Of a stretch of DNA of 64,000 bases, positions 8,083 to 16,581 are shown piece by piece. The position numbers and the translations under genes are program-made. The DNA is from Nitrososphaeria archaeon (GTDB taxonomy: Archaea; Thermoproteota; Nitrososphaeria; Geothermarchaeales; JDFR-13). The DNA is taken from the NCBI GenBank assembly GCA_027078545.1, contig JALWXN010000004.1, positions 896,001-960,000 on the forward strand. The letters run 5' to 3'. Each line of letters opens with the position of its first letter. The stretch's first letter is position 1. The notes below the pieces were generated by a model. That model was not told the origin of the DNA. It ran no database searches and saw only the letters and a list, made by a program, of their open reading frames with translations.

Positions 8083-9687
8083 ATGAAGGTATACGAGGCC
8101 ATAGCCGATGCATTGGTCAGCCTAGGATATAGGAGGGCCTATACTATACCCGGGACACACATATATCATTTGAACCACGCCCTGGGAGACAGGATTCACC
8201 AGACGGTTTTCAGGCATGAGATGGGCGCCACCTTCGCGGCCGATGCATATGGAAGGGTCACAGGTACTCCAGGCCTAGCCATAGTGACGGCCGGCCCTGG
8301 CATACTAAACGGGTTATCAGGGCTTGGACAGGCATATGCAGAGGCATCACCACTCCTATACATAACCGGCGAGGTCGCCAGGGGCGAGAGGTACGGCTTC
8401 CACGGAGTTGATGACCCCCTAGCCGTCACCTACTCATCCATACCAGTGGCTAAACGCGTATACCTCGTCGAGGATCCAGGCAGCATATGGAGCGTAATGG
8501 GTGAGGCTCACTACACAGCACTCACAGGTAGGAGGGGACCCGTACATGTATCTATCCCCTATGACGTACTGCAGAGCGAGGTTGGTGAGGGGAGGCTGGA
8601 GCAGAGGGAGACGGATGGTATAGCTAGATGTGTAGATGTTATCAATGAAGGACTTAGAGACGGTGTGAGGGGCGTCCTGGTAATCGGTATGGAGCTATAC
8701 CCAGAGCTGGCGGATAGGCTACTAGACCTCTTTGAGACATGGCCCTACATAGCCACGGTAGGCCAGATAGGCATGGCTCGGCTTAGGAGGGATAGATATG
8801 CAGGCCATATAGAGAAGAAGTTCCAGATCCACCCAGTAGCCAAGGAGATCCTTAGGGAAGCTGAATATATACTCGCAGTCGGGATACCGCCAGACTCACC
8901 AGAGGCGGAGCATATCTCAATGCTAAGCAAGGATGCCAGGATAGACTTCCTAAGGCCTAGCGAGGCCGGGTGCAGCGTGGAGAGGATAGGTAAGGGCTAC
9001 CATGTAGAGGCACCCCTCAGCGAGGCGATTGACCTCCTAAGCCCCGGAGAAAGCGGCCTAGACCATGACGTGGAGAAGATGATGAGAGAGCGTCTTGAAT
9101 GGGCTAGAGAGACTGTCTACTCCGAGAAGGGGCCAAGGATACACCAGGGAGTGGCTGCACACATGATATCCCAGCTAGAGATAGATGGCTACACAGTCAC
9201 CTGTGACACTGGCGGGAATGAGCAATGGATAAGGGAGTTCATACCACCCACCCGCGACGTCAGATATCTATACTCAGGGGGCTTCGGATCAATAGGGTAT
9301 AGCCTACCAGCATCCATAGGAGCCTACGACGCTGAGCGGGAGGTACTAGCCGTCACTGGGGACGGGAGCCTGATGATGAGTCTGGGCGAGCTCAAGACTA
9401 TAGTGGAGCATGGATATAGGGTGAAGATAGCGGTATTCAACGACTCTACCTATGGAATACTAGAGATGCTGAGTAGGAGCGATATAGGTGAGGAGATCGA
9501 GGGAGGGATAGGGAGCGTCGACTTTGCAAAGGTTGCGGAGGCACTGGGTATGGAGTCCATGGCTGTAGAGACATATGAAGATCTTGAGGAGGGGCTTGAA
9601 GAGCTCATGGATAGTACCGGGCCATTCCTCCTAGACATCAGGTGTAGCCCGGAGGAGGTCCCTACACTACTGAGGAAGAGTGATTAA
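8083..9687 (+). CDS. Thiamine-diphosphate-dependent enzyme, acetolactate-synthase large-subunit family
   Basis: RHE..A.F.ADAYGR, AGPG..N, GPVHVSIP.D, GDGS...NDS ThDP-binding motif. Confidence 0.88.
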   Translation: MKVYEAIADALVSLGYRRAYTIPGTHIYHLNHALGDRIHQTVFRHEMGATFAADAYGRVTGTPGLAIVTAGPGILNGLSGLGQAYAEASPLLYITGEVARGERYGFHGVDDPLAVTYSSIPVAKRVYLVEDPGSIWSVMGEAHYTALTGRRGPVHVSIPYDVLQSEVGEGRLEQRETDGIARCVDVINEGLRDGVRGVLVIGMELYPELADRLLDLFETWPYIATVGQIGMARLRRDRYAGHIEKKFQIHPVAKEILREAEYILAVGIPPDSPEAEHISMLSKDARIDFLRPSEAGCSVERIGKGYHVEAPLSEAIDLLSPGESGLDHDVEKMMRERLEWARETVYSEKGPRIHQGVAAHMISQLEIDGYTVTCDTGGNEQWIREFIPPTRDVRYLYSGGFGSIGYSLPASIGAYDAEREVLAVTGDGSLMMSLGELKTIVEHGYRVKIAVFNDSTYGILEMLSRSDIGEEIEGGIGSVDFAKVAEALGMESMAVETYEDLEEGLEELMDSTGPFLLDIRCSPEEVPTLLRKSD

Positions 9688-9706: not shown

Positions 9707-12700
9707 CTAGTCCTCAAGCCTAGTCCCACAGCTCATGCAGAACTTGGCAGTAGGCCTATTCACATGTCCACAGCTGGGGCAGACCTTGCCAGCCCTCTCC
9801 ACCCTTGTAGGCCTCGTGGGCCTCGGGATCTGTGGCTTTGGTAGGCCTCCCATGCCACGTCTATAGAGGAGGAAGCCCGTTATACCGAGCCCTATGATAA
9901 TCACTATGGTGATACCCAGCGAGGCGGGTGTGAACATTACCCCTATCTCTAGGCTGGTGGCTCCCCTCCCGAGTGAGGCTGTACTCGTCGTCACGAAACC
10001 GGTCTCTAGGACTAGATCCCTATCTGGTAGTAGGAGTGTGAACCTCCCTGAGCCGTCGGTCTGAGTGGTGGCCACCACCTCGCCTGTAGACGGGTTCACC
10101 GCCCTTACCTCTGCAGAGCCTAGTGGTAGGCCAAGGAAGTCCCTGACAGTCCCAGTCACCCTCTTCACCTCTGTGGATATAGTGACAGTGGAGTCGGAGG
10201 CTAGGCCGACCTCCTGGGTACCCACGGTGTAGCCTAGGTATCCGATCTCCACCCTATAGCTTCCTGCGGGCAGATTGTTCAGAACCGCCTCTCCACCAGC
10301 CTCTCCAGCTATTACGCTCCCATTGGGGTGGTATACCTTGTAGCTGAAACGCTCGAGAGCCTCCCCATCCATCGTCTCGGGCCTGATGACCAGGTCGTAG
10401 ATAGCCAGCTGGATAGTCTTCTCACCGGGGGACGACTCGGCGGAGTATGTTGTTGGGAGTAGTACTCCCTGGTAGACGATGTTTGTTATCGAGATCGTCC
10501 CCTTGGGCAGGAGGAGCTGTGGATTATCCACTGGGAACTCCCTACCCTGTATCGAGAGGGTGAAGGAGACCTTCCCGAAGGGTATCTCCTCCCCATCTGC
10601 ATCGACGAATCTTAGGCTGACGCTGTATACAGCCGCCTTGATTGAGAAGGACTGGTCCCCACCCGTGAACTGGATCGTCCTCTCACTTGGGAGGACGTCG
10701 AAGCCCCTCCAGCTTAGGCTCTCTATGGTATATGTACCTATGACCGCGTACTCAAGGACGAGGCTACCCGTGACCGTATACCTCTTACCACCCGGACCGA
10801 TCAGAACAGCCTCCACATCGTCCAGGACTATTGATCCTGAGGAGTCGGATACGCTTATGCCAAGCCTACCCACTGGGAGCTCAACCTGTACATCCCTGTT
10901 ACCATCTAGCTGTACATCGATGCCTAGGCCATACTCCACACCATCGATATAGACGGCCTCTACACGCCAGAGCCCCTTCACAGCCTGTTCAACAGTCAGT
11001 CCACCGGTGAAGGTTATGGTGGATCCGTTGGGGTGTCTAAGCACGAGCCTGAAGTCTAGGCCAGAGCTGGATAGATCCCTTCCGAGGGTGTCCCTGGCGT
11101 CTAGCCTAAGCCTATAGACAGCGAGGCCCACCTGCATAGAGACGTCTCCATCGACCTGTATCGAGACGGGGCTGGGCAGTACGTTTACACCCTCCATGTA
11201 GACACCGATAAGTCTATGTGTACCCCTGGGCATCTGGTAGGCGGCTCCCCTAGCCTCGAGGCTTATGATCCTACCAGCCACGTCCAGCTCTATCCGGAGA
11301 GCCCTGTCTATAGCCCCTCCATTGGCGTCTCTAAATGCCAGGCTGAGGTGGTAGACCTCGAGGTTAACAACAACCTCACCAGGACCATCGACGTTGAAGC
11401 TGTTCTCACTGGGCGTCACGTCCACACCTAGGTAGACCACCCTCTCAATGGTTATCGTGCCAGGCACGAGGGCGACTCCGTCAGGCGAGTATACCAGGCT
11501 GCCAAGCCGGTCATGCCTGATACTAACCTCCTCAGGCGGAGTGGTAAGGGGCTCGCCATCCCTATCCCTGAATACGAGGTTTATCCTGAATACACTGGTC
11601 TCAACAGTCCTGACCCCGCTGCTCGTCTCCCTGAAACTGGTGTTCGCCACCTCGACACCCGACCATATAACCCTTATCCTATAGTCCCCCCAGGGCGCAC
11701 GGTCAACCGTTATTCTACCAGCCTCGTCGGTCCTGAAAGTCCTTACCGTGCCGTTTGGATATGTGACCTCCACATCTACATTGGGGAGTGGCTGCCCAGT
11801 CTGATCCACAACGGTGTAGCTGAGGCTTAGGAGGTAGTCCTCCACGTTGAAGGTCACGTTACCCATATTCTTGTATGCGTCGAGGGCGTTGGAGAGGGCG
11901 TTCTCATAGTTGCCAGCCCCGGACTTTATGATGTTTATCGCGGTGGATAGGCTCTGGTTATACTGGCCAACCTGGCTCCATACATCGTCTGGTATAATGG
12001 TGAAGCCGTACCGCTTGAAAGGCTCAAGAGCCGTGTCGAGCTTACCATATGCCTTGTCGATATAGTAGAGTGCATAGAGCATACTCGCCTGCTCGATCTG
12101 GAAGACATCGTTCCTACCCCAGCTATGGAGGTAGGTCATGTATCCCCAGGTCATGCTCCAGAGCCAGAAGACATCAAGAGCCCGGCTAGGGTTACGTGTA
12201 GCCATCAACTCCCTCCAATTAATCCCGTTGTGGGGATGGTTTAGGGAGAAGATATGTCCTGCCTCGTGTACAAGTAGGGTGGTAAGCCCTAGCCATGGCG
12301 GTACCTTACTAAGTATTGTTATGTTAACGTAGGTGTCAAACCACTCGTTGTTCTGGACGAGGACTACATATGTATCCCCGATGCCACGGGGCTGGACACG
12401 GGCGTTTACCACCCCATTAAAGGTCTGCCGATATATGGGTGTGGGGCTACCACCGTCTAGGAACTCCCTATACCCTGCACCATCTAGAACTATTATATCC
12501 ACCTCTCCGAATGTGAAGCCCTGTATAACTATCTCCCCACCAGTGACCTTGGGGAATATTGGCACAGGTTGAGCCGCTATCTGGAAGGCGGGTAGATAGC
12601 CTATCAACGGTTCGGAGGGGATATACCCGCCGATAAGTGCAGGTGTCTGTAGGACGGCTATGATATGGGATGGGATGGTGTTCTCATCGGTAAGGGCGAT

Positions 12701-13948
12701 CCCGCCTGCATACGCTATCCTCACATCGAGGAAGATGAACATGGGGACTTCATAGACTGGGTCGGGATCCCTAAACCTATCGATATTCTCCATGATCCAG
12801 TTATGGACGACTTCCAGTGGCGCTCCCTGGCCAAAATACATATTGTAGAGAATCTCATCCCTCAGGTCGGGGAAGTCGTCAAGGGTATACAGACCCTTAT
12901 CCTCATAGGTTATGTTCAACGCTCCGCCGAAGAGGTTCCTTAGCTCTGATAGGAAGACCTCAGGTGTGAAGTAGTTCCTAGGGTCTAACTGGGTGCCGTT
13001 GACTATGTAGTAAGCCTCGAAGGATATGTTGAGGGCGGGTATAGGTGGGTAGACAGCGGTGTGTACAAACTTGAAGATTACTGCAGAATCGATAACCCTA
13101 GCGAGCTGCTGGTTCAAAAGCTGCTTATCACCGGGTAGACTCAGGAACCTCATCGGCCTTATCTCGACCGATACGTTGTTGAAGGAGGTGGGGCCGGCGC
13201 TCAGGTCGAAGAAGATCAGCCTCGTCGAGCCTCCACCAGCCACCGATTGCATAGAGTCCTTCCTTAGGTAGACGTTCCACCCCTGGTCAGGGTCTGGGAG
13301 CGTTATGTTGTAGAAGTATAGGTATGAGATGTCGGGATACGTGTTTATGATAACCAGTGTATACTTCCCCTCGGTCTCGGGGAACTCCTGCCTAACCCTG
13401 TTTACGAGCCACTCCTCGAACTCCATGGCGTTGATGTAGGCGGCGTCCCTCTCACCAGTCTCGAGCTGGGCTCTGAATGGAGCTTCTCCCCAGACTCGAT
13501 TATTATTGATGTAGCTGACTATATCGCTCTTCAACTGGCTAGATGCATATAGGAACCGGTAGTTCAGGGTGAAATTGATATAGATATATGCCTCACCCTT
13601 CTCCAGGATCCTCTGTAGATCAGCCCTTGCATACCACTTGTGTACATTCGAGAGTATATACTCCTCATCGACAAGATCTTGGCCAAGGCCTACGAAGACC
13701 ACATAGATATCCAGCGGCACCCCATTAAACAGATCCCGTAGGGTGCCCGAGACCCACTCCAGCTTCCTAAGACTAGTCGCCATCTCATCGCCCTGGGCAA
13801 CCAGGTCTAGGAAGCTGTTGGCAGTATACTCAGACCCTGCACCACCAACATATCCAGATAAGTCTATAGATGGTGGTATCGGTACGGCAAGGAAGACTAG
13901 AAGGGTAAAAAGTAGTGGGAGTGGGGATCTCCTCGGCCCAACACCCAA
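9707..13948 (-). CDS. Large membrane-anchored surface zinc metalloprotease (metzincin-like) with beta-sandwich repeats and a cytoplasmic C-terminal zinc ribbon
   Basis: Signal peptide; HEAGHIFSLNHPH zinc motif with a downstream Met-turn-like GYMTY; about 8 CarboxypepD_reg/Cna-B-like repeats (D..G.PL...YPNG, TD..G); C-terminal TM, Pro/Arg-rich linker, CPSCGHVNRPTAKFCMSCGTRL. Confidence 0.8.
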   Translation of the reverse strand: MGVGPRRSPLPLLFTLLVFLAVPIPPSIDLSGYVGGAGSEYTANSFLDLVAQGDEMATSLRKLEWVSGTLRDLFNGVPLDIYVVFVGLGQDLVDEEYILSNVHKWYARADLQRILEKGEAYIYINFTLNYRFLYASSQLKSDIVSYINNNRVWGEAPFRAQLETGERDAAYINAMEFEEWLVNRVRQEFPETEGKYTLVIINTYPDISYLYFYNITLPDPDQGWNVYLRKDSMQSVAGGGSTRLIFFDLSAGPTSFNNVSVEIRPMRFLSLPGDKQLLNQQLARVIDSAVIFKFVHTAVYPPIPALNISFEAYYIVNGTQLDPRNYFTPEVFLSELRNLFGGALNITYEDKGLYTLDDFPDLRDEILYNMYFGQGAPLEVVHNWIMENIDRFRDPDPVYEVPMFIFLDVRIAYAGGIALTDENTIPSHIIAVLQTPALIGGYIPSEPLIGYLPAFQIAAQPVPIFPKVTGGEIVIQGFTFGEVDIIVLDGAGYREFLDGGSPTPIYRQTFNGVVNARVQPRGIGDTYVVLVQNNEWFDTYVNITILSKVPPWLGLTTLLVHEAGHIFSLNHPHNGINWRELMATRNPSRALDVFWLWSMTWGYMTYLHSWGRNDVFQIEQASMLYALYYIDKAYGKLDTALEPFKRYGFTIIPDDVWSQVGQYNQSLSTAINIIKSGAGNYENALSNALDAYKNMGNVTFNVEDYLLSLSYTVVDQTGQPLPNVDVEVTYPNGTVRTFRTDEAGRITVDRAPWGDYRIRVIWSGVEVANTSFRETSSGVRTVETSVFRINLVFRDRDGEPLTTPPEEVSIRHDRLGSLVYSPDGVALVPGTITIERVVYLGVDVTPSENSFNVDGPGEVVVNLEVYHLSLAFRDANGGAIDRALRIELDVAGRIISLEARGAAYQMPRGTHRLIGVYMEGVNVLPSPVSIQVDGDVSMQVGLAVYRLRLDARDTLGRDLSSSGLDFRLVLRHPNGSTITFTGGLTVEQAVKGLWRVEAVYIDGVEYGLGIDVQLDGNRDVQVELPVGRLGISVSDSSGSIVLDDVEAVLIGPGGKRYTVTGSLVLEYAVIGTYTIESLSWRGFDVLPSERTIQFTGGDQSFSIKAAVYSVSLRFVDADGEEIPFGKVSFTLSIQGREFPVDNPQLLLPKGTISITNIVYQGVLLPTTYSAESSPGEKTIQLAIYDLVIRPETMDGEALERFSYKVYHPNGSVIAGEAGGEAVLNNLPAGSYRVEIGYLGYTVGTQEVGLASDSTVTISTEVKRVTGTVRDFLGLPLGSAEVRAVNPSTGEVVATTQTDGSGRFTLLLPDRDLVLETGFVTTSTASLGRGATSLEIGVMFTPASLGITIVIIIGLGITGFLLYRRGMGGLPKPQIPRPTRPTRVERAGKVCPSCGHVNRPTAKFCMSCGTRLED

Positions 13949-13954
13949 TCCGGG

Positions 13955-15652
13955 TCACCCCTCAAGCTTGGTTCCACACTTGACGCAGAACTTGGCGCCA
14001 GGCTTATTTGGATGCCCACAGCTCGGGCAGTATAACGCACCCTCCACCGGCTCAGGCGGAGCCTTCCTAGGTACCTTGACCCCTACTCCTCCCCTCTTGA
14101 GGAATATGTAGGCGCCGACGCCTATTAGAGCCAGTACTGGTAGGGCGATCATCCATAGTGGTATGCCTGGTGAAGCCACCTTTACCGTGAGGGTGCTCGA
14201 CGCAGGGTTGAAGTCATCGTCCCCAACAAAGCTGGCTGTGACCACGAGGTCTCCACCAGTAGATGGGGTGTATGTAAGGCTGAAGGTGTTGTCCTCACCG
14301 ACCCTCACGGTACGTGTCTCGGTGTTGCCCCCAAGCTGTATGGTTATATCCACCAATACGTCTTTGAAGGAGACGTCTACGCCTAGTGGGTTGGGCCCAT
14401 CATAGCTCAGCGACCCAGTTATAGTCACTGTCTCACCAGCATTCACCTCGGTGGCATTTGCCTGCAGCGATAGCGTGACGTCGCTCTTAGCACCCTCGGC
14501 CAGCTTCGACTGGGCCTTCTGGATCATGTACGACGCGTACCAGTTGAAGGGGTAGAGGTTCCTAACATCCTCGAAGACCTTCTTGGCCCTTGAGTAGAGC
14601 CCTGCATAGAAGTATCCAACACCCTCCTCCCACATCTGGTCGACAGGCCCACGTGTATTGTAGCTCACACCCTGCTCAGCCAGATATTGTTTAAGCACGT
14701 CACCCGGTATGAAGAAGTTGAACCCCGCTACAGGCTCTAGATTCTCATCTACAGAGGCCATATTGGCTACACCTATGACTTCACCCCTCTCGTTAACCAC
14801 TGGCCCACCACTATTGCCTTTACTAATGTCCACATTCGTCTGTATAGCCCTTACATCCGTGATCGTCCTCCTCTCACCACTGATGATACCGTTTGTATAT
14901 GAGGGGAAGAGCAGAGTGTCCTCACTCAGCATAGTGTGGAAGTTGACCACACCTGGATAGCCGAACGCGTATATCGTCTGGCCAGGCTGATACTCATCTA
15001 CCTCGCTAATCTTGAGTGAAGGGGTATTCGCCACATCAATCTTGAGTACGGCGAGGTCCCTACCCACTAGGAACGGATCGGGAGTACCTACGACCCTAGC
15101 GATTATACCATCCTCCCTAATCTTTCCTCCGCTTGACTCGCCGACCAGGACATAGACTATCCGGATGGCGTTCCTCACCTCACCATAGGTAAGGACATGG
15201 TTTATAATGAACTCTATGTCCTCCTGGGTAATATTATAGCCGCTCTCTATAAGGTTGTTGATGATGTCGATAGCTGCACTCCTAACTAGCTCCGTCTTCA
15301 CGAAAATATCCTCGAGATAGTCCGAATGGGTCATGGCGAAGACTACATGCCCATTGGTCACTATGTAGCCATCGTTATTAACGAAGAATCCGCTCCCAAT
15401 ACCCCCTATCATCGAGGTGACGGTGAAGAAGTCGGCTGTGGGGCGTCCATACCTATCCACATATGGAACCTTTATCTCGGCCTCTATAATCGTAACTATG
15501 AAAACGACTCCGGGCAGGACTAGGTCGTAGATAGCCTCTGGACTGATAGCCTCCTGAGCCGCCACAGGCTCCACGACGGGCGTGTATGGATTAGCTGTCG
15601 GGCCGAGGAGTATTCCCAGCAGGATCAATACGATTATCCCATTCCTAACCAT
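13955..15652 (-). CDS. Membrane-anchored trypsin-like (S1C/HtrA-like) serine protease with TPR, Ig-like domain and cytoplasmic zinc ribbon
   Basis: Signal peptide; GSGF, TNGHVV, DLAVLKI, GNSGGP catalytic triad; TPR-like helix pair; Ig-like domain; TM; CPSCGHPNKPGAKFCVKCGTKL. Confidence 0.88.
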   Translation of the reverse strand: MVRNGIIVLILLGILLGPTANPYTPVVEPVAAQEAISPEAIYDLVLPGVVFIVTIIEAEIKVPYVDRYGRPTADFFTVTSMIGGIGSGFFVNNDGYIVTNGHVVFAMTHSDYLEDIFVKTELVRSAAIDIINNLIESGYNITQEDIEFIINHVLTYGEVRNAIRIVYVLVGESSGGKIREDGIIARVVGTPDPFLVGRDLAVLKIDVANTPSLKISEVDEYQPGQTIYAFGYPGVVNFHTMLSEDTLLFPSYTNGIISGERRTITDVRAIQTNVDISKGNSGGPVVNERGEVIGVANMASVDENLEPVAGFNFFIPGDVLKQYLAEQGVSYNTRGPVDQMWEEGVGYFYAGLYSRAKKVFEDVRNLYPFNWYASYMIQKAQSKLAEGAKSDVTLSLQANATEVNAGETVTITGSLSYDGPNPLGVDVSFKDVLVDITIQLGGNTETRTVRVGEDNTFSLTYTPSTGGDLVVTASFVGDDDFNPASSTLTVKVASPGIPLWMIALPVLALIGVGAYIFLKRGGVGVKVPRKAPPEPVEGALYCPSCGHPNKPGAKFCVKCGTKLEG

Positions 15653-15656
15653 CTAA

Positions 15657-16088
15657 TCACCTCTTGAAGATCTTCTTGACACCCCCTAGGAGACCCTCGT
15701 CCTCCACCAGCTTGGCGCCACAATTCTCACAGAACCTACTACCAGCCGCGTTTGGATGCCCACACTCGGGGCAGTAGATAATGTTACCGGTATGGCTATG
15801 CCTAGCCGGAGTCGTAGAGGTAGGCTCCGCCTGTTGTGTCTGCTGGGCCGGCGGCTGGCTCGAGACACCTCCAGACCCGCTTAGCCCACTGGTCTTCAGG
15901 AGAACCACGTCCCCAACGGCCTGGATATTGCTGAAGAAGACATAGTTCTGCTCCTCACCCTCGCCGATGACCATCACTAGGTTGCCCTTCAGGTCGAAGC
16001 CTATGTCACTGACCTTCCCGAGGATCTTCCCGTTGGCGTCGATTACGGTCTTACCGACTACATCCTCCCTTCGGAAGAAGGAAGTCAT
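15657..16088 (-). CDS. PRC-barrel protein with Q/P/T-rich linker, zinc ribbon and C-terminal amphipathic helix
   Basis: DVVGKTVIDANGKILGKVSDIGFD...IQAVGDVVLL PRC-barrel pattern; CPECGHPNAAGSRFCENCGAKL; GLLGGVKKIFKR tail. ATG 16088 is favoured by TATA spacing (ORF track gives 16109). Confidence 0.85.
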   Translation of the reverse strand: MTSFFRREDVVGKTVIDANGKILGKVSDIGFDLKGNLVMVIGEGEEQNYVFFSNIQAVGDVVLLKTSGLSGSGGVSSQPPAQQTQQAEPTSTTPARHSHTGNIIYCPECGHPNAAGSRFCENCGAKLVEDEGLLGGVKKIFKR

Positions 16089-16117
16089 GCTATCACGAAA
16101 TACAATCAATCCACAAA

Positions 16118-16126
16118 TTTATATAA
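16118..16126 (-). promoter_or_regulatory. TATA box of the PRC-barrel/protease operon
   Basis: TTATATAAA on the minus strand about 30 nt upstream of ATG 16088, with an A-rich BRE-like element upstream. Confidence 0.6.
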
Positions 16127-16200
16127 CTAGTATTTTCTGTGAGGAGGGGTTTGGAGGCCAGGCATTTCCATATGCTTAGAAACTTAAAAGACTCTATTCC

Positions 16201-16581
16201 CTAGATTTCTACACCGTGTTCCTTCAACATTTTTGAGAGTTTTGAAACCGTGTTGATGATATAGTCGACAGCTCTATCCATATCGATTATCCTTACTAGG
16301 AGCCTATGTCGCCAGAGGATCCTCTGGTTATTATGGTCTATGAAACGTGTGAAGACCCTTTTAAGCTCGTCGGGAACCTGGATATCATTCTTCTTTAGGA
16401 AGAAGTCTACGTAGCACCATGTATAGGCATCCTCCTTATAGTCACTGGCATGGGCCAGGTCGAAGGATATGTAGAAGGGTATCCCGTTGGAGACGGTTAT
16501 CCTATCCTCACTCCCCTCTATGGGGAACTCGACCTCCTTGAGGCCATAGCCCTTGAGGTCGTTCCTGACTAGGAACTCCAC
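16201..16581 (-). CDS. Hypothetical protein (true start possibly ATT at 16626)
   Basis: 126-aa ORF with host-like codon use; the frame stays open upstream to a GGAGG-preceded ATT. Confidence 0.7.
   Translation of the reverse strand: MEFLVRNDLKGYGLKEVEFPIEGSEDRITVSNGIPFYISFDLAHASDYKEDAYTWCYVDFFLKKNDIQVPDELKRVFTRFIDHNNQRILWRHRLLVRIIDMDRAVDYIINTVSKLSKMLKEHGVEI

What the first reader, a model, noticed from the sequence alone, without database searches (positions are those of the whole stretch)
9707..16126. Three-gene operon: a PRC-barrel scaffold and two membrane proteases sharing one cytoplasmic zinc-ribbon tag
Seen: one TATA box drives three tightly packed genes (gaps of 4-6 nt). All three products carry nearly the same ribbon, CPxCGHxNxxxxxFCxxCGxxL (9716-9781, 13964-14029, 15708-15773); the last two share near-identical DNA (tttggatgcccaca..ctcggg..cagta). 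Two are single-pass membrane proteins with extracellular proteases of unrelated classes: a metzincin-like HEAGHIFSLNH enzyme on a long beta-sandwich stalk, and an HtrA-like H-D-S protease. Their ribbons sit after the TM helix, so they face the cytoplasm. The third is a soluble PRC barrel. Known: PRC barrels oligomerise and organise archaeal division machinery (CdpB1/B2 with SepF/FtsZ; the N-terminus of CdvA). Inference: the ribbon is an address tag that clusters surface proteases on a PRC-barrel scaffold or a common partner, giving spatially controlled envelope or S-layer proteolysis. I know of no described system with this architecture.
Basis: partly seen in the sequence, partly recalled or inferred. 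Interest (0 to 1): 0.88.

Follow-up and report, generated by a model that had tools for sequence, protein, structure and literature searches.

The report
Three-gene zinc-ribbon protease cassette
A small archaeal genome carries a 6.4-kb accessory block of three genes (a PRC-barrel protein and two membrane-anchored surface proteases), each ending in the same kind of small cytoplasmic zinc ribbon and gained or lost as one unit, which suggests, but does not prove, that the ribbons join the three proteins at the membrane.

Summary
Three co-directional genes, 4 to 6 nt apart behind one conserved TATA-like box, encode:
- A: PRC barrel, disordered linker, PF13240 zinc ribbon and a conserved amphipathic tail.
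- B: secreted S1C serine protease (H102/D199/S281, no PDZ), one Ig-like domain, a TM helix and a cytoplasmic ribbon.
- C: 1413-aa metzincin (HEAGHIFSLNH plus Met-turn) with a PIG-S-like head on an Ig-like stalk, a TM helix and a ribbon.

Three of the genome's four PF13240 ribbons, and its only PRC domain, lie here.

New evidence that the genes form a unit: relatives at 65-92% identity keep the whole block. Three other relatives have an empty site where the flanking genes abut. Ribbon-bearing genes also sit side by side in other lineages, including a second case of PRC-ribbon followed by two ribbon-tagged membrane proteins.

Corrections: ribbon DNA is 59-76% identical, not near-identical. A probably starts at 16088 and is probably membrane-peripheral. 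No FtsZ or SepF was found, so the CdpB division model does not apply.

Ribbon-mediated assembly remains inference, and the complex prediction gave no verdict. The scan had noted this same stretch in overlapping windows of this genome, not on other DNA.

The parts
16118..16126 (-). TATA-like box TTATATAAA, 30 nt upstream of the ATG of gene A
   Evidence: Read. An AG(TT/AA)ATAT element is conserved in 4 orthologous upstream regions.
15657..16088 (-). Gene A, 143 aa: PRC barrel, disordered linker, zinc ribbon and amphipathic tail
   Evidence: AF2 model: PRC confident, linker pLDDT <50. Orthologues start at this ATG.
15873..16058 (-). PRC-barrel domain of A (residues 11-72)
   Evidence: PF05239 E 1.5e-8. 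Foldseek top hits are MTH1859 (33% id), A. fulgidus CdpB1/CdpB2, RimM and CdvA.
15708..15773 (-). Zinc ribbon of A (CPECGHPNAAGSRFCENCGAKL), net charge -3 with its flanks
   Evidence: PF13240, 35.5 bits. Charge. The FCE.CG signature is conserved in most PRC-ribbon proteins aligned (7 of 10 ribbon-bearing rows).
15660..15695 (-). C-terminal amphipathic tail GLLGGVKKIFKR, a candidate membrane-targeting helix
   Evidence: Highest hydrophobic moment in the protein (0.60). Conserved as GLLGGFKKVFKR and GVIGGVRKLFKR in orthologues. Function is inferred.
13955..15652 (-). Gene B, 565 aa: signal peptide, S1C trypsin-like protease, helical region, Ig-like domain, TM helix, ribbon
   Evidence: Below all HtrA/DegP equivalog cut-offs and no PDZ.
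14768..15397 (-). Trypsin_2 catalytic domain of B. Triad codons: H102 (15347-15349), D199 (15056-15058), S281 (14810-14812, GNSGGP).
   Evidence: PF13365 E 2e-23. Motifs located.
14099..14164 (-). Transmembrane helix of B (IPLWMIALPVLALIGVGAYIFL), followed by KRGG
   Evidence: The positive-inside rule places the tail in the cytoplasm (inference).
13964..14029 (-). Cytoplasmic zinc ribbon of B, net charge +3
   Evidence: PF13240, 33.9 bits. The ribbon is conserved while the linker is not.
9707..13948 (-). Gene C, 1413 aa: signal peptide, PIG-S-like metzincin head, Ig-like stalk, TM helix, ribbon
11849..13750 (-). Ectodomain head of C (residues ~67-700): metzincin catalytic fold with an inserted GOLD-like beta-sandwich and a three-helix bundle
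   Evidence: AF2 pLDDT 91, pTM 0.90. VIA scores: PIG-S Z 15.6, ADAM17/TACE/adamalysin Z 8-8.8, p24 GOLD Z 10.2.
12236..12268 (-). Zinc-binding motif HEAGHIFSLNH. The Met-turn GYMTY follows at residues 602-606 (M604 = 12137-12139).
   Evidence: H, E, H, H and P are invariant in 44 family members. The family profile aligns the motif and Met-turn with serralysins, E 2.6e-8.
9974..11836 (-). Stalk of repeated CarboxypepD_reg / Ig-like domains (residues ~705-1325)
   Evidence: PF13620 E 1e-18, 3 stretches, plus weaker Big_1, SpaA and PEGA hits.
9863..9931 (-). Transmembrane helix of C, followed by RRG
9716..9781 (-). Cytoplasmic zinc ribbon of C, net charge +1
   Evidence: PF13240, 30.2 bits..

Best explanation
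This is a 6.4-kb accessory cassette, transcribed from one promoter, that puts two active proteases on the outside of the cell.

- B is a short-stalked S1C serine protease.
- C is a metzincin held far out on a roughly 620-residue Ig-like stalk.
- Each is anchored by one C-terminal TM helix and carries a small, basic PF13240 zinc ribbon on a flexible, poorly conserved cytoplasmic linker.
- A is a cytoplasmic PRC-barrel protein with its own, acidic ribbon. Its C-terminal amphipathic helix probably holds it on the inner face of the membrane.

Proposed mechanism (inferred): the ribbons are protein-protein docking modules. Through them the two protease tails associate with A, by ribbon-ribbon pairing as in 'double zinc ribbon' domains or by ribbon-PRC contact. 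The PRC barrel self-associates. The two ectoenzymes are thereby co-localised, stabilised or regulated from inside the cell.

Shown here: the gene structure, domains, catalytic motifs, topology logic, unit-like gain or loss of the block, and recurrent clustering of ribbon genes. Inferred: membrane binding of A, any physical contact, and the substrate (extracellular or envelope proteins).
For: (1) Unit behaviour. A, B and C are kept together, with ribbons, in the same synteny in G002, L013 and L015 at 92, 65 and 71% identity of A. In G003, G001 and G008 the flanking genes (DUF885-like, hyp126, TPP enzyme, Macro) are contiguous with no A, B or C. In G003 the hyp126-TPP gap is about 12 nt.

(2) Concentration. 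Three of the 4 PF13240 ribbons and the only PRC domain of the genome lie here.

(3) Selection on the ribbons. Ribbons are conserved while the TM-ribbon linkers diverge. Each gene keeps its own ribbon signature, and A is acidic whereas B and C are basic.

(4) Independent parallels.
- G015:C162 has PRC-ribbon, then a Vps62-like multi-TM protein with a C-terminal ribbon, then a protein with an N-terminal ribbon and 4 TM helices.
- L071 and L072 have B-like proteases (36-41% identity) next to another type-I membrane protein with ribbon tail(s).
- G016:C112 has a small TM-ribbon protein next to a ribbon-PrsW intramembrane protease.
- By my count, about 21 of 57 ribbon ORFs in the 17 genomes of the order lie within 3 kb of another ribbon ORF. 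Random placement would give a few percent.

(5) Domain swap. Bacterial cousins of B carry a cytoplasmic FHA domain, a known protein-docking module, where B has the ribbon.

(6) About 7 of 115 representatives of C's family independently carry a CxxC...CxxC tail after the TM helix.

(7) A's tail has the highest hydrophobic moment in the protein and is conserved.

(8) In a Nitrosopumilus-like family, the PRC-ribbon homologue sits directly upstream of a membrane signal peptidase in all 30 loci examined.
Against: - No direct evidence of binding.
- The ribbons are close to the generic PF13240 consensus, so 'the same tag' is partly a family property.
- Other genomes of the order carry up to 13 such ribbons on unrelated proteins, many of them alone.
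- The full cassette is confined to one narrow clade. B was found at E<=1e-25 in only 2 of 301 genomes of the class.
- Synteny among close kin is weak evidence.
- PRC-ribbon homologues in two other families (f12, f14) are not next to proteases.
- A distant metzincin with a ribbon tail (L050) has no PRC-ribbon neighbour.
- The G015 PRC-ribbon is not acidic, so charge complementarity is not general.
Confidence: 0.4

Rival explanations
1. The genes form a co-regulated unit but the three products do not touch. Each ribbon binds a common partner encoded elsewhere, or anionic lipid at the inner leaflet. A is a separate regulator or adaptor that uses the same partner.
For: - Ribbons occur singly on many unrelated membrane proteins in related genomes.
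- The genome's fourth ribbon sits on an unrelated multi-pass membrane protein.
- The B and C ribbons are basic and membrane-proximal.
Against: - No candidate common partner was identified.
- Ribbon genes cluster far more often than random placement predicts. A shared distant partner does not require that.
- A's ribbon is acidic, which fits lipid binding poorly.
Confidence: 0.27
2. The ribbons are generic structural caps (folding, topology or stability elements on cytoplasmic tails) with no partner. The cassette is simply two secreted nutritional proteases plus an unrelated small PRC protein that travelled with them.
For: - PF13240 + TM + ectodomain is a widespread architecture of unknown function. 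In bacterial YARHG proteins it was proposed to be a membrane-tethered transcription factor (PMC3355149).
- The cassette is dispensable (empty sites).
- PRC-ribbon homologues occur without protease neighbours.
Against: - The ribbons are more conserved than the surrounding tails.
- The same pairing of PRC-ribbon with ribbon-tagged membrane proteins recurs in a different family with different ectodomains.
- A, B and C are never seen apart in the genomes examined.
Confidence: 0.2
3. This is a trans-membrane signalling device. The ectoproteases sense or process an outside substrate, and the ribbons pass a signal inward, for example as membrane-tethered nucleic-acid-binding fingers, with A as the soluble relay.
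For: - Zinc ribbons often bind nucleic acids.
- A membrane-tethered transcription-factor idea has been proposed for bacterial ribbon-TM proteins.
- Bacterial cousins of B carry FHA, a signalling domain.
Against: - A 22-residue ribbon on a low-complexity linker has no recognisable DNA-binding surface.
- No transcription-factor domain is present in the cassette.
- No site-2-type protease is adjacent in this cassette.
Confidence: 0.06

Closest known systems
CdpB1/CdpB2 PRC-barrel division proteins (Haloferax, A. fulgidus; PDB 8QZO, 8ONW) and stand-alone PRC protein MTH1859 (1PM3)
   Same: Small archaeal PRC barrel. These are the best structural matches of A's barrel. PRC barrels of this kind oligomerise and act at the membrane through partners.
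   Different: - CdpB proteins work with SepF and FtsZ, and neither was found in this genome.
- They lack the ribbon and the amphipathic tail.
- The literature says only that 'a few' archaeal PRC proteins carry a zinc ribbon, with no function given.
CdvA (PRC barrel + coiled coil + ESCRT-III-binding tail; PDB 9S9G)
   Same: An N-terminal PRC barrel followed by a C-terminal element that acts at the membrane. The host uses a Cdv-type system.
   Different: The genome has its own CdvA-like gene beside Snf7 at C4:339888-341049. A has no CdvA coiled coil and is dispensable.
Bacterial FHA-TM-S1C (trypsin-like) proteases
   Same: The same protease subfamily as B (27-32% identity over 51-68% of B) with a cytoplasmic protein-docking module across one TM helix.
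   Different: The cytoplasmic module is FHA (phosphothreonine binding), not a zinc ribbon. No PRC partner is known.
HtrA/DegP/DegS (S1C)
   Same: Catalytic fold, GNSGGP serine motif and extracytoplasmic location.
   Different: - No PDZ domain.
- Scores are far below all HtrA equivalog cut-offs (81 against 416 bits).
- It has a C-terminal membrane anchor, an Ig-like domain and a cytoplasmic ribbon.
Metzincins (serralysin, ADAM/adamalysin, archaemetzincin) and the dead metzincin-like subunit PIG-S of eukaryotic GPI transamidase
   Same: - HExxHxxxxxH plus an MxY Met-turn aligned to serralysin.
- ADAM-like catalytic fold.
- The whole head superposes on PIG-S, Z 15.6 over 380 residues.
- PIG-S is already known to contain a metzincin-like portion without an active site (PMC9098846).
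   Different: - C keeps the full zinc site.
- The motif's Gly is Ser, Ala or Thr in this clade.
- A GOLD-like sandwich is inserted.
- C has a long Ig-like stalk, a single C-terminal TM helix and a ribbon.
- No Pfam peptidase model or PF10510 match for C itself.
Cytoplasmic zinc-ribbon + TM + ectodomain proteins (e.g. bacterial YARHG proteins) and 'double zinc ribbon' (DZR) domains
   Same: The same PF13240, PF13248 and PF12773 ribbons on the cytoplasmic side of single-pass proteins.
   Different: Here the ribbons are C-terminal, sit on three co-encoded proteins, and include a non-membrane-spanning PRC protein. The function of the bacterial examples is also unknown.

Membership tests
PRC barrel (PF05239) | Sequence match above the Pfam gathering score and a PRC beta-barrel fold | tested here: met
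   35 bits against a cut-off of 21.2. Barrel pLDDT is about 90. PRC structures fill the Foldseek list.
CdpB-type division PRC proteins | Partners SepF and FtsZ present in the same genome | tested here: not met
   PF04472 and PF00091 were not found in the 92%-complete genome, while the control genomes rang.
CdpB-type division PRC proteins | Localisation at the division site and essentiality for division | not testable with these tools
   Only indirect: the gene is absent from close relatives with an intact site, which argues against an essential role.
CdvA | PRC barrel followed by the CdvA coiled-coil domain (PF18822), next to ESCRT-III | tested here: not met
   Gene A has no PF18822 match. A separate CdvA-like ORF lies beside Snf7 elsewhere in the genome.
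S1C serine proteases (trypsin-like, HtrA clan) | His-Asp-Ser triad in a Trypsin_2 fold | tested here: met
   PF13365 E 2e-23. H102 (TNGHVVF), D199 (GRDLAVL) and S281 (GNSGGP).
HtrA/DegP/DegS proper | One or two C-terminal PDZ domains and a score above the equivalog cut-offs | tested here: not met
   No PDZ in Pfam. Best NCBIfam score is 81 bits against a cut-off of 416.
Metzincin metalloproteases | Zinc motif HExxHxxGxxH | tested here: met
   HEAGHIFSLNH: the three His and the Glu are present and invariant in the family. The family consensus is HExGHxxGLxHP. The Gly is Ser here and Ala or Thr in the closest orthologues.
Metzincin metalloproteases | Conserved Met-turn downstream of the third His | tested here: met
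   M604 in GYMTY is nearly invariant in the family. It aligns with the serralysin SVMSY turn at E 2.6e-8.
Metzincin metalloproteases | Catalytic-domain fold | tested here: inconclusive
   ADAM17, TACE, adamalysin, ADAMTS and 3LMC score Z 7.7-8.8 with 162-194 residues aligned over model 275-602. That is near the tool's background level for Z and is convincing only together with the motif evidence.
PIG-S (GPI transamidase subunit, PF10510) | Overall fold of the luminal domain | tested here: met
   7w72_S Z 15.6 with 380 residues aligned. Foldseek E 4e-7. An Atlas cluster carrying PIG-S and DUF7906 gives TM 0.41/0.62.
PIG-S (GPI transamidase subunit, PF10510) | Sequence match to PF10510, two TM helices, part of a GPI-T complex | tested here: not met
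   No PF10510 match for C or 44 relatives. The architecture is a signal peptide plus one C-terminal TM helix. Other GPI-T subunits were not looked for.
PF13240 Zn_Ribbon_1 | CxxC-x(10)-CxxC ribbon above the gathering score | tested here: met
   35.5, 33.9 and 30.2 bits against a cut-off of 25.
MinD/FtsA-type amphipathic membrane-targeting sequence | Short, basic amphipathic helix at the extreme C-terminus | tested here: inconclusive
   Hydrophobic moment is 0.60, the highest in the protein, with net charge +4 over the 12 tail residues; conserved in 4 orthologues. AF2 gives low confidence there. Membrane binding is untested.

The most novel reading that the evidence does not exclude
PF13240 ribbons are a general archaeal 'cytoplasmic Velcro'. 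Co-encoded membrane ectoenzymes are joined through their ribbon tails to each other and to a membrane-peripheral PRC-barrel-ribbon scaffold. That would be a modular way of building and controlling surface enzyme assemblies from inside the cell, and this cassette is its clearest example, with the G015, L071, L072 and G016 clusters as variants.
Probability: 0.3. Interest if true: 0.8.

Novelty: new variant of a known kind. Interest (0 to 1): 0.6.

Why it matters
Small cytoplasmic zinc ribbons on single-pass membrane proteins are very common in archaea and bacteria and have no assigned function. This cassette offers a compact, testable case: three proteins, three ribbons, a natural presence/absence polymorphism, and parallels in other lineages. 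If the ribbons prove to be docking modules, that would explain a widespread orphan domain. It would also give a role to the PRC-ribbon proteins that are near-universal in ammonia-oxidising archaea, and show how archaea without a periplasm organise surface proteases. If not, the cassette is still a clean example of an accessory pair of ectoproteases.

Tried and rejected
- Complex prediction of A with the B tail and two Zn: score 0.17 against a mark of 0.32, so no verdict. It is not used as evidence either way.
- Recent gene conversion between ribbons: rejected. DNA identity is 59-76%, and each gene keeps its own ribbon signature across orthologues.
- PRC-ribbon next to distant ribbon-tailed relatives of C: none found in L050, L051 is uninformative, and L049 is too short.
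- CdpB/SepF/FtsZ-type role: rejected. A as CdvA: rejected.
- Word-based search for C homologues gave only 2 hits. The exhaustive profile search was needed.
- Sequence link of C's family to PIG-S: none in Pfam or the PDB profile search. The link is structural only.
- A 17-nt imperfect direct repeat (9585-9601 and 16140-16156) brackets the block. One copy lies inside the TPP gene, and two-copy matches of this size are expected by chance, so it is not taken as an insertion scar.
- Organism names could not be retrieved. The reading of the class as Nitrososphaeria-like is my inference from the relatives' genome sizes and gene content.

Full report
**What is there**

On the minus strand of the window lie three ORFs: A at 16109/16088-15657, B at 15652-13955 and C at 13948-9707. 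They are separated by 4 and 6 nt.

Orthologues start A at the ATG at 16088, giving 143 aa. A TTATATAAA element sits at 16118-16126, 30 nt upstream of that ATG. A similar AG(TT/AA)ATAT element is kept in four orthologous upstream regions. There is no room for internal promoters outside coding sequence, so one transcript is likely. Transcript data could not be obtained.

**Gene A**

- Pfam finds a PRC barrel (residues 11-72, E 1.5e-8) and a PF13240 zinc ribbon (residues 105-127 in the 143-aa numbering).
- The AF2 model has a confident barrel, a disordered Ser/Gln/Pro-rich linker and a moderately confident ribbon.
- The nearest solved structures are MTH1859, the A. fulgidus CdpB1/CdpB2 pair, RimM and CdvA.
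- After the ribbon comes E(D/E)EGLLGGVKKIFKR, conserved in all close orthologues. It has the highest hydrophobic moment in the protein, 0.60. I read it as a MinD/FtsA-like membrane-targeting helix. That is inference.

**Gene B**

- Signal peptide, then a Trypsin_2 domain (E 2e-23) with H102, D199 and S281 (GNSGGP).
- A helical region and one Big_3_5 Ig-like domain follow.
- Then a TM helix followed by KRGG, a Pro-rich linker and a PF13240 ribbon.
- It has no PDZ domain and scores far below the HtrA/DegP equivalog cut-offs. It is an S1C protease but not a canonical HtrA.

**Gene C**

No peptidase model of Pfam or NCBIfam matches it directly. An exhaustive profile search found a sparse family of 115 representatives at 50% identity.

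- Nearly all complete members carry HExxHxxGLxHP.
- In a 44-sequence alignment, H561, E562, H565, H571 and P572 are invariant, and M604/Y606 are nearly so.
- The family profile aligns this zinc site and the following (S/T)xMxY turn with serralysins at E 2.6e-8.
- Members weakly match Peptidase_M10, M66 and reprolysin models, and DUF7906.

The AF2 model of residues 30-700 is confident (pLDDT 91, pTM 0.90). Structure comparison gives:

- ADAM/adamalysin/ADAMTS/archaemetzincin-type catalytic domains, Z 7.7-8.8 over model residues 275-602.
- A GOLD-like beta-sandwich inserted at residues 411-521, Z about 10.
- A C-terminal three-helix bundle.
- As the best overall match, the PIG-S subunit of human GPI transamidase: Z 15.6, 380 residues aligned, Foldseek E 4e-7.

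PIG-S is already known to contain a metzincin-like part without the active site (PMC9098846). C is the live-site counterpart of that fold. Similar folds occur in many bacteria, and DUF7906 occurs in plants.

The rest of C is about 620 residues of CarboxypepD_reg/Ig-like repeats, a TM helix followed by RRG, a basic linker and the ribbon. The metzincin Gly is Ser here and Ala or Thr in the closest orthologues. Whether that affects activity is unknown.

**Is the ribbon sharing more than chance?**

Yes.

- The whole 1.24-Mb genome (92% complete) has four PF13240 matches over the cut-off. Three are in this block. The fourth is an N-terminal ribbon on a small multi-pass membrane protein.
- The only PRC match in the genome is gene A.
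The 66-nt ribbons are 70% (A-B), 59% (A-C) and 76% (B-C) identical.
- Across orthologous cassettes each gene keeps its own ribbon signature: A has CPECGHPN...FCENCG, and B and C have CP(S/N)CG..NKPTAKFC. This is old, separately maintained sequence, not recent conversion.
- Ribbons are conserved while the adjacent linkers are not.
- A's ribbon region is acidic (-3) and those of B and C are basic (+3, +1). This holds in the close orthologues by my count, but not in the G015 homologue.

**The three genes behave as one unit**

- Close homologues of A exist in only a handful of assemblies.
- In those with enough contig (G002, L013, L015) the full A-B-C block lies in the same neighbourhood: DUF885-like, hyp126, A-B-C, then TPP enzyme and Macro.
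- Two other genomes of the same genus (G003, G001) and a complete genome of another genus of the family (G008) have the flanking genes contiguous, with hyp126 next to the TPP gene and no A, B or C.
- B was found at E<=1e-25 in only 2 of 301 genomes of the class.

The block is therefore an accessory cassette, gained or lost whole. A single gain in the cassette-bearing clade is the simplest reading, but I built no tree.

**Parallels elsewhere**

In the 17 genomes of the order, about 21 of 57 ribbon-bearing ORFs lie within 3 kb of another one, at seven loci in four genera (my count). Random placement would give a few percent. Kin are not independent, so this is descriptive only. The loci include:

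- G015:C162: a 124-aa PRC-ribbon protein, then a Vps62-like multi-TM protein with a C-terminal ribbon, then a protein with an N-terminal ribbon and four TM helices.
- G016:C112: a small TM-polyPro-ribbon protein next to a ribbon-PrsW intramembrane protease.
- G009:C30: two soluble proteins, each with a charged linker and a C-terminal ribbon.

Relatives of B at 36-41% identity also carry TM plus ribbon. One is preceded by an Ig-ectodomain-TM-ribbon protein (L071). Another is followed, after 3 nt, by a 729-aa type-I membrane protein with two ribbons (L072). Bacterial cousins of B have a cytoplasmic FHA domain in the ribbon's place. That fits a docking role for this position.

About 7 of 115 representatives of C's family have independently acquired CxxC...CxxC tails.

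The PRC-ribbon family itself is class-wide. In a Nitrosopumilus-like family a longer form (Cys pairs, linker, PRC, ribbon) was found in 179 of 181 genomes. In all 30 loci examined it lies directly upstream of an S26 signal peptidase gene. In two other families it does not. The literature notes only that 'a few' archaeal PRC proteins carry a zinc ribbon. A Nitrososphaera PRC protein has been flagged as responsive to carbon limitation, with no function assigned.

**What it is not**

The genome has a Cdv locus (Snf7 and a CdvA-like ORF at C4:339888-341049) and no detectable FtsZ or SepF. Being dispensable, the cassette is unlikely to be core division machinery.

**Most likely mechanism, and how sure**

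I put about 0.85 on the following: the cassette is one functional unit encoding two active, membrane-anchored ectoproteases at different heights above the membrane, plus a PRC-ribbon protein acting on the cytoplasmic side.

I put about 0.4 on the three ribbons being the physical link between them, by ribbon-ribbon pairing as in DZR domains or by ribbon-PRC contact, with the PRC barrel oligomerising.

The main rivals are:

- A shared partner or lipid binding without mutual contact (0.27).
- Generic structural tails with mere co-regulation (0.2).
- A signalling device (0.06).

The single complex-prediction job gave no verdict.

**Novelty**

Every part is a known kind, and two of the architectures have been noticed before: PRC+ribbon, and ribbon-TM-ectodomain. 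What has not been described in the literature I searched is a cassette in which a PRC-ribbon protein and ribbon-tailed ectoenzymes travel together, with parallels in other lineages. I rate it a new variant of a known kind, with a testable and potentially general hypothesis attached.

Noticed in passing
window 11849-13750 (gene C head); model mb9d6111dcbb4: The whole ectodomain head of C superposes on PIG-S of human GPI transamidase (Z 15.6, 380 residues) yet keeps an intact metzincin zinc site and Met-turn. PIG-S is known to have a dead metzincin-like part. Similar folds are common in Actinomycetota and Chloroflexota, and DUF7906 occurs in plants. This family may be the active prokaryotic counterpart of PIG-S.
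   Followed up: partly
L007:1048-2577 and L022-L048, L064, L065, L069: In a Nitrosopumilus-like family, a ~245-aa protein (N-terminal Cys pairs, long linker, PRC barrel, C-terminal PF13240 ribbon) was found in 179 of 181 genomes. In all 30 loci examined it lies directly upstream of an S26 signal peptidase gene. This adjacency is not seen in families f12 and f14.
   Followed up: partly
genome C4:1028590-1028652 (outside the window): The genome's fourth PF13240 ribbon is the N-terminus (MKTCPKCGYENPDEAVYCLKCG) of a small multi-pass membrane protein of unknown function, conserved in G002.
   Followed up: no
window 16201-16581 (-): A 126-aa hypothetical protein lies just upstream of the cassette. 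It is conserved (48-76% identity) in relatives with and without the cassette, so it is not part of it. No family is assigned.
   Followed up: partly
window 9585-9601 and 16140-16156: A 17-nt imperfect direct repeat (TGAGGAGGGGCTTGAAG / TGAGGAGGGGTTTGGAG) brackets the cassette. One copy lies inside the 3' end of the TPP-enzyme gene. It is probably chance but could be a recombination scar.
   Followed up: no
L055:2044-3738 (G016:C112): A PrsW-family intramembrane metalloprotease with an N-terminal PF13240 ribbon lies next to a 139-aa protein made of a TM helix, a polyproline stretch and a ribbon. The ribbon of the PrsW gene lies upstream of the first ATG/GTG/TTG in its frame.
   Followed up: partly
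genome C4:339888-341049 (outside the window): Cdv-type division locus: Snf7/CdvB (E 1.6e-8) followed by a CdvA-like ORF (E 1.1e-5, below the Pfam cut-off). No FtsZ or SepF was found in the 92%-complete genome.
   Followed up: partly
one search hit list (P0169-P0240): Many bacterial S1C proteases related to B (Acidobacteriota, cyanobacteria) carry FHA and Yop-YscD_cpl domains. These are cytoplasmic phosphothreonine-binding modules coupled to an extracytoplasmic protease.
   Followed up: no
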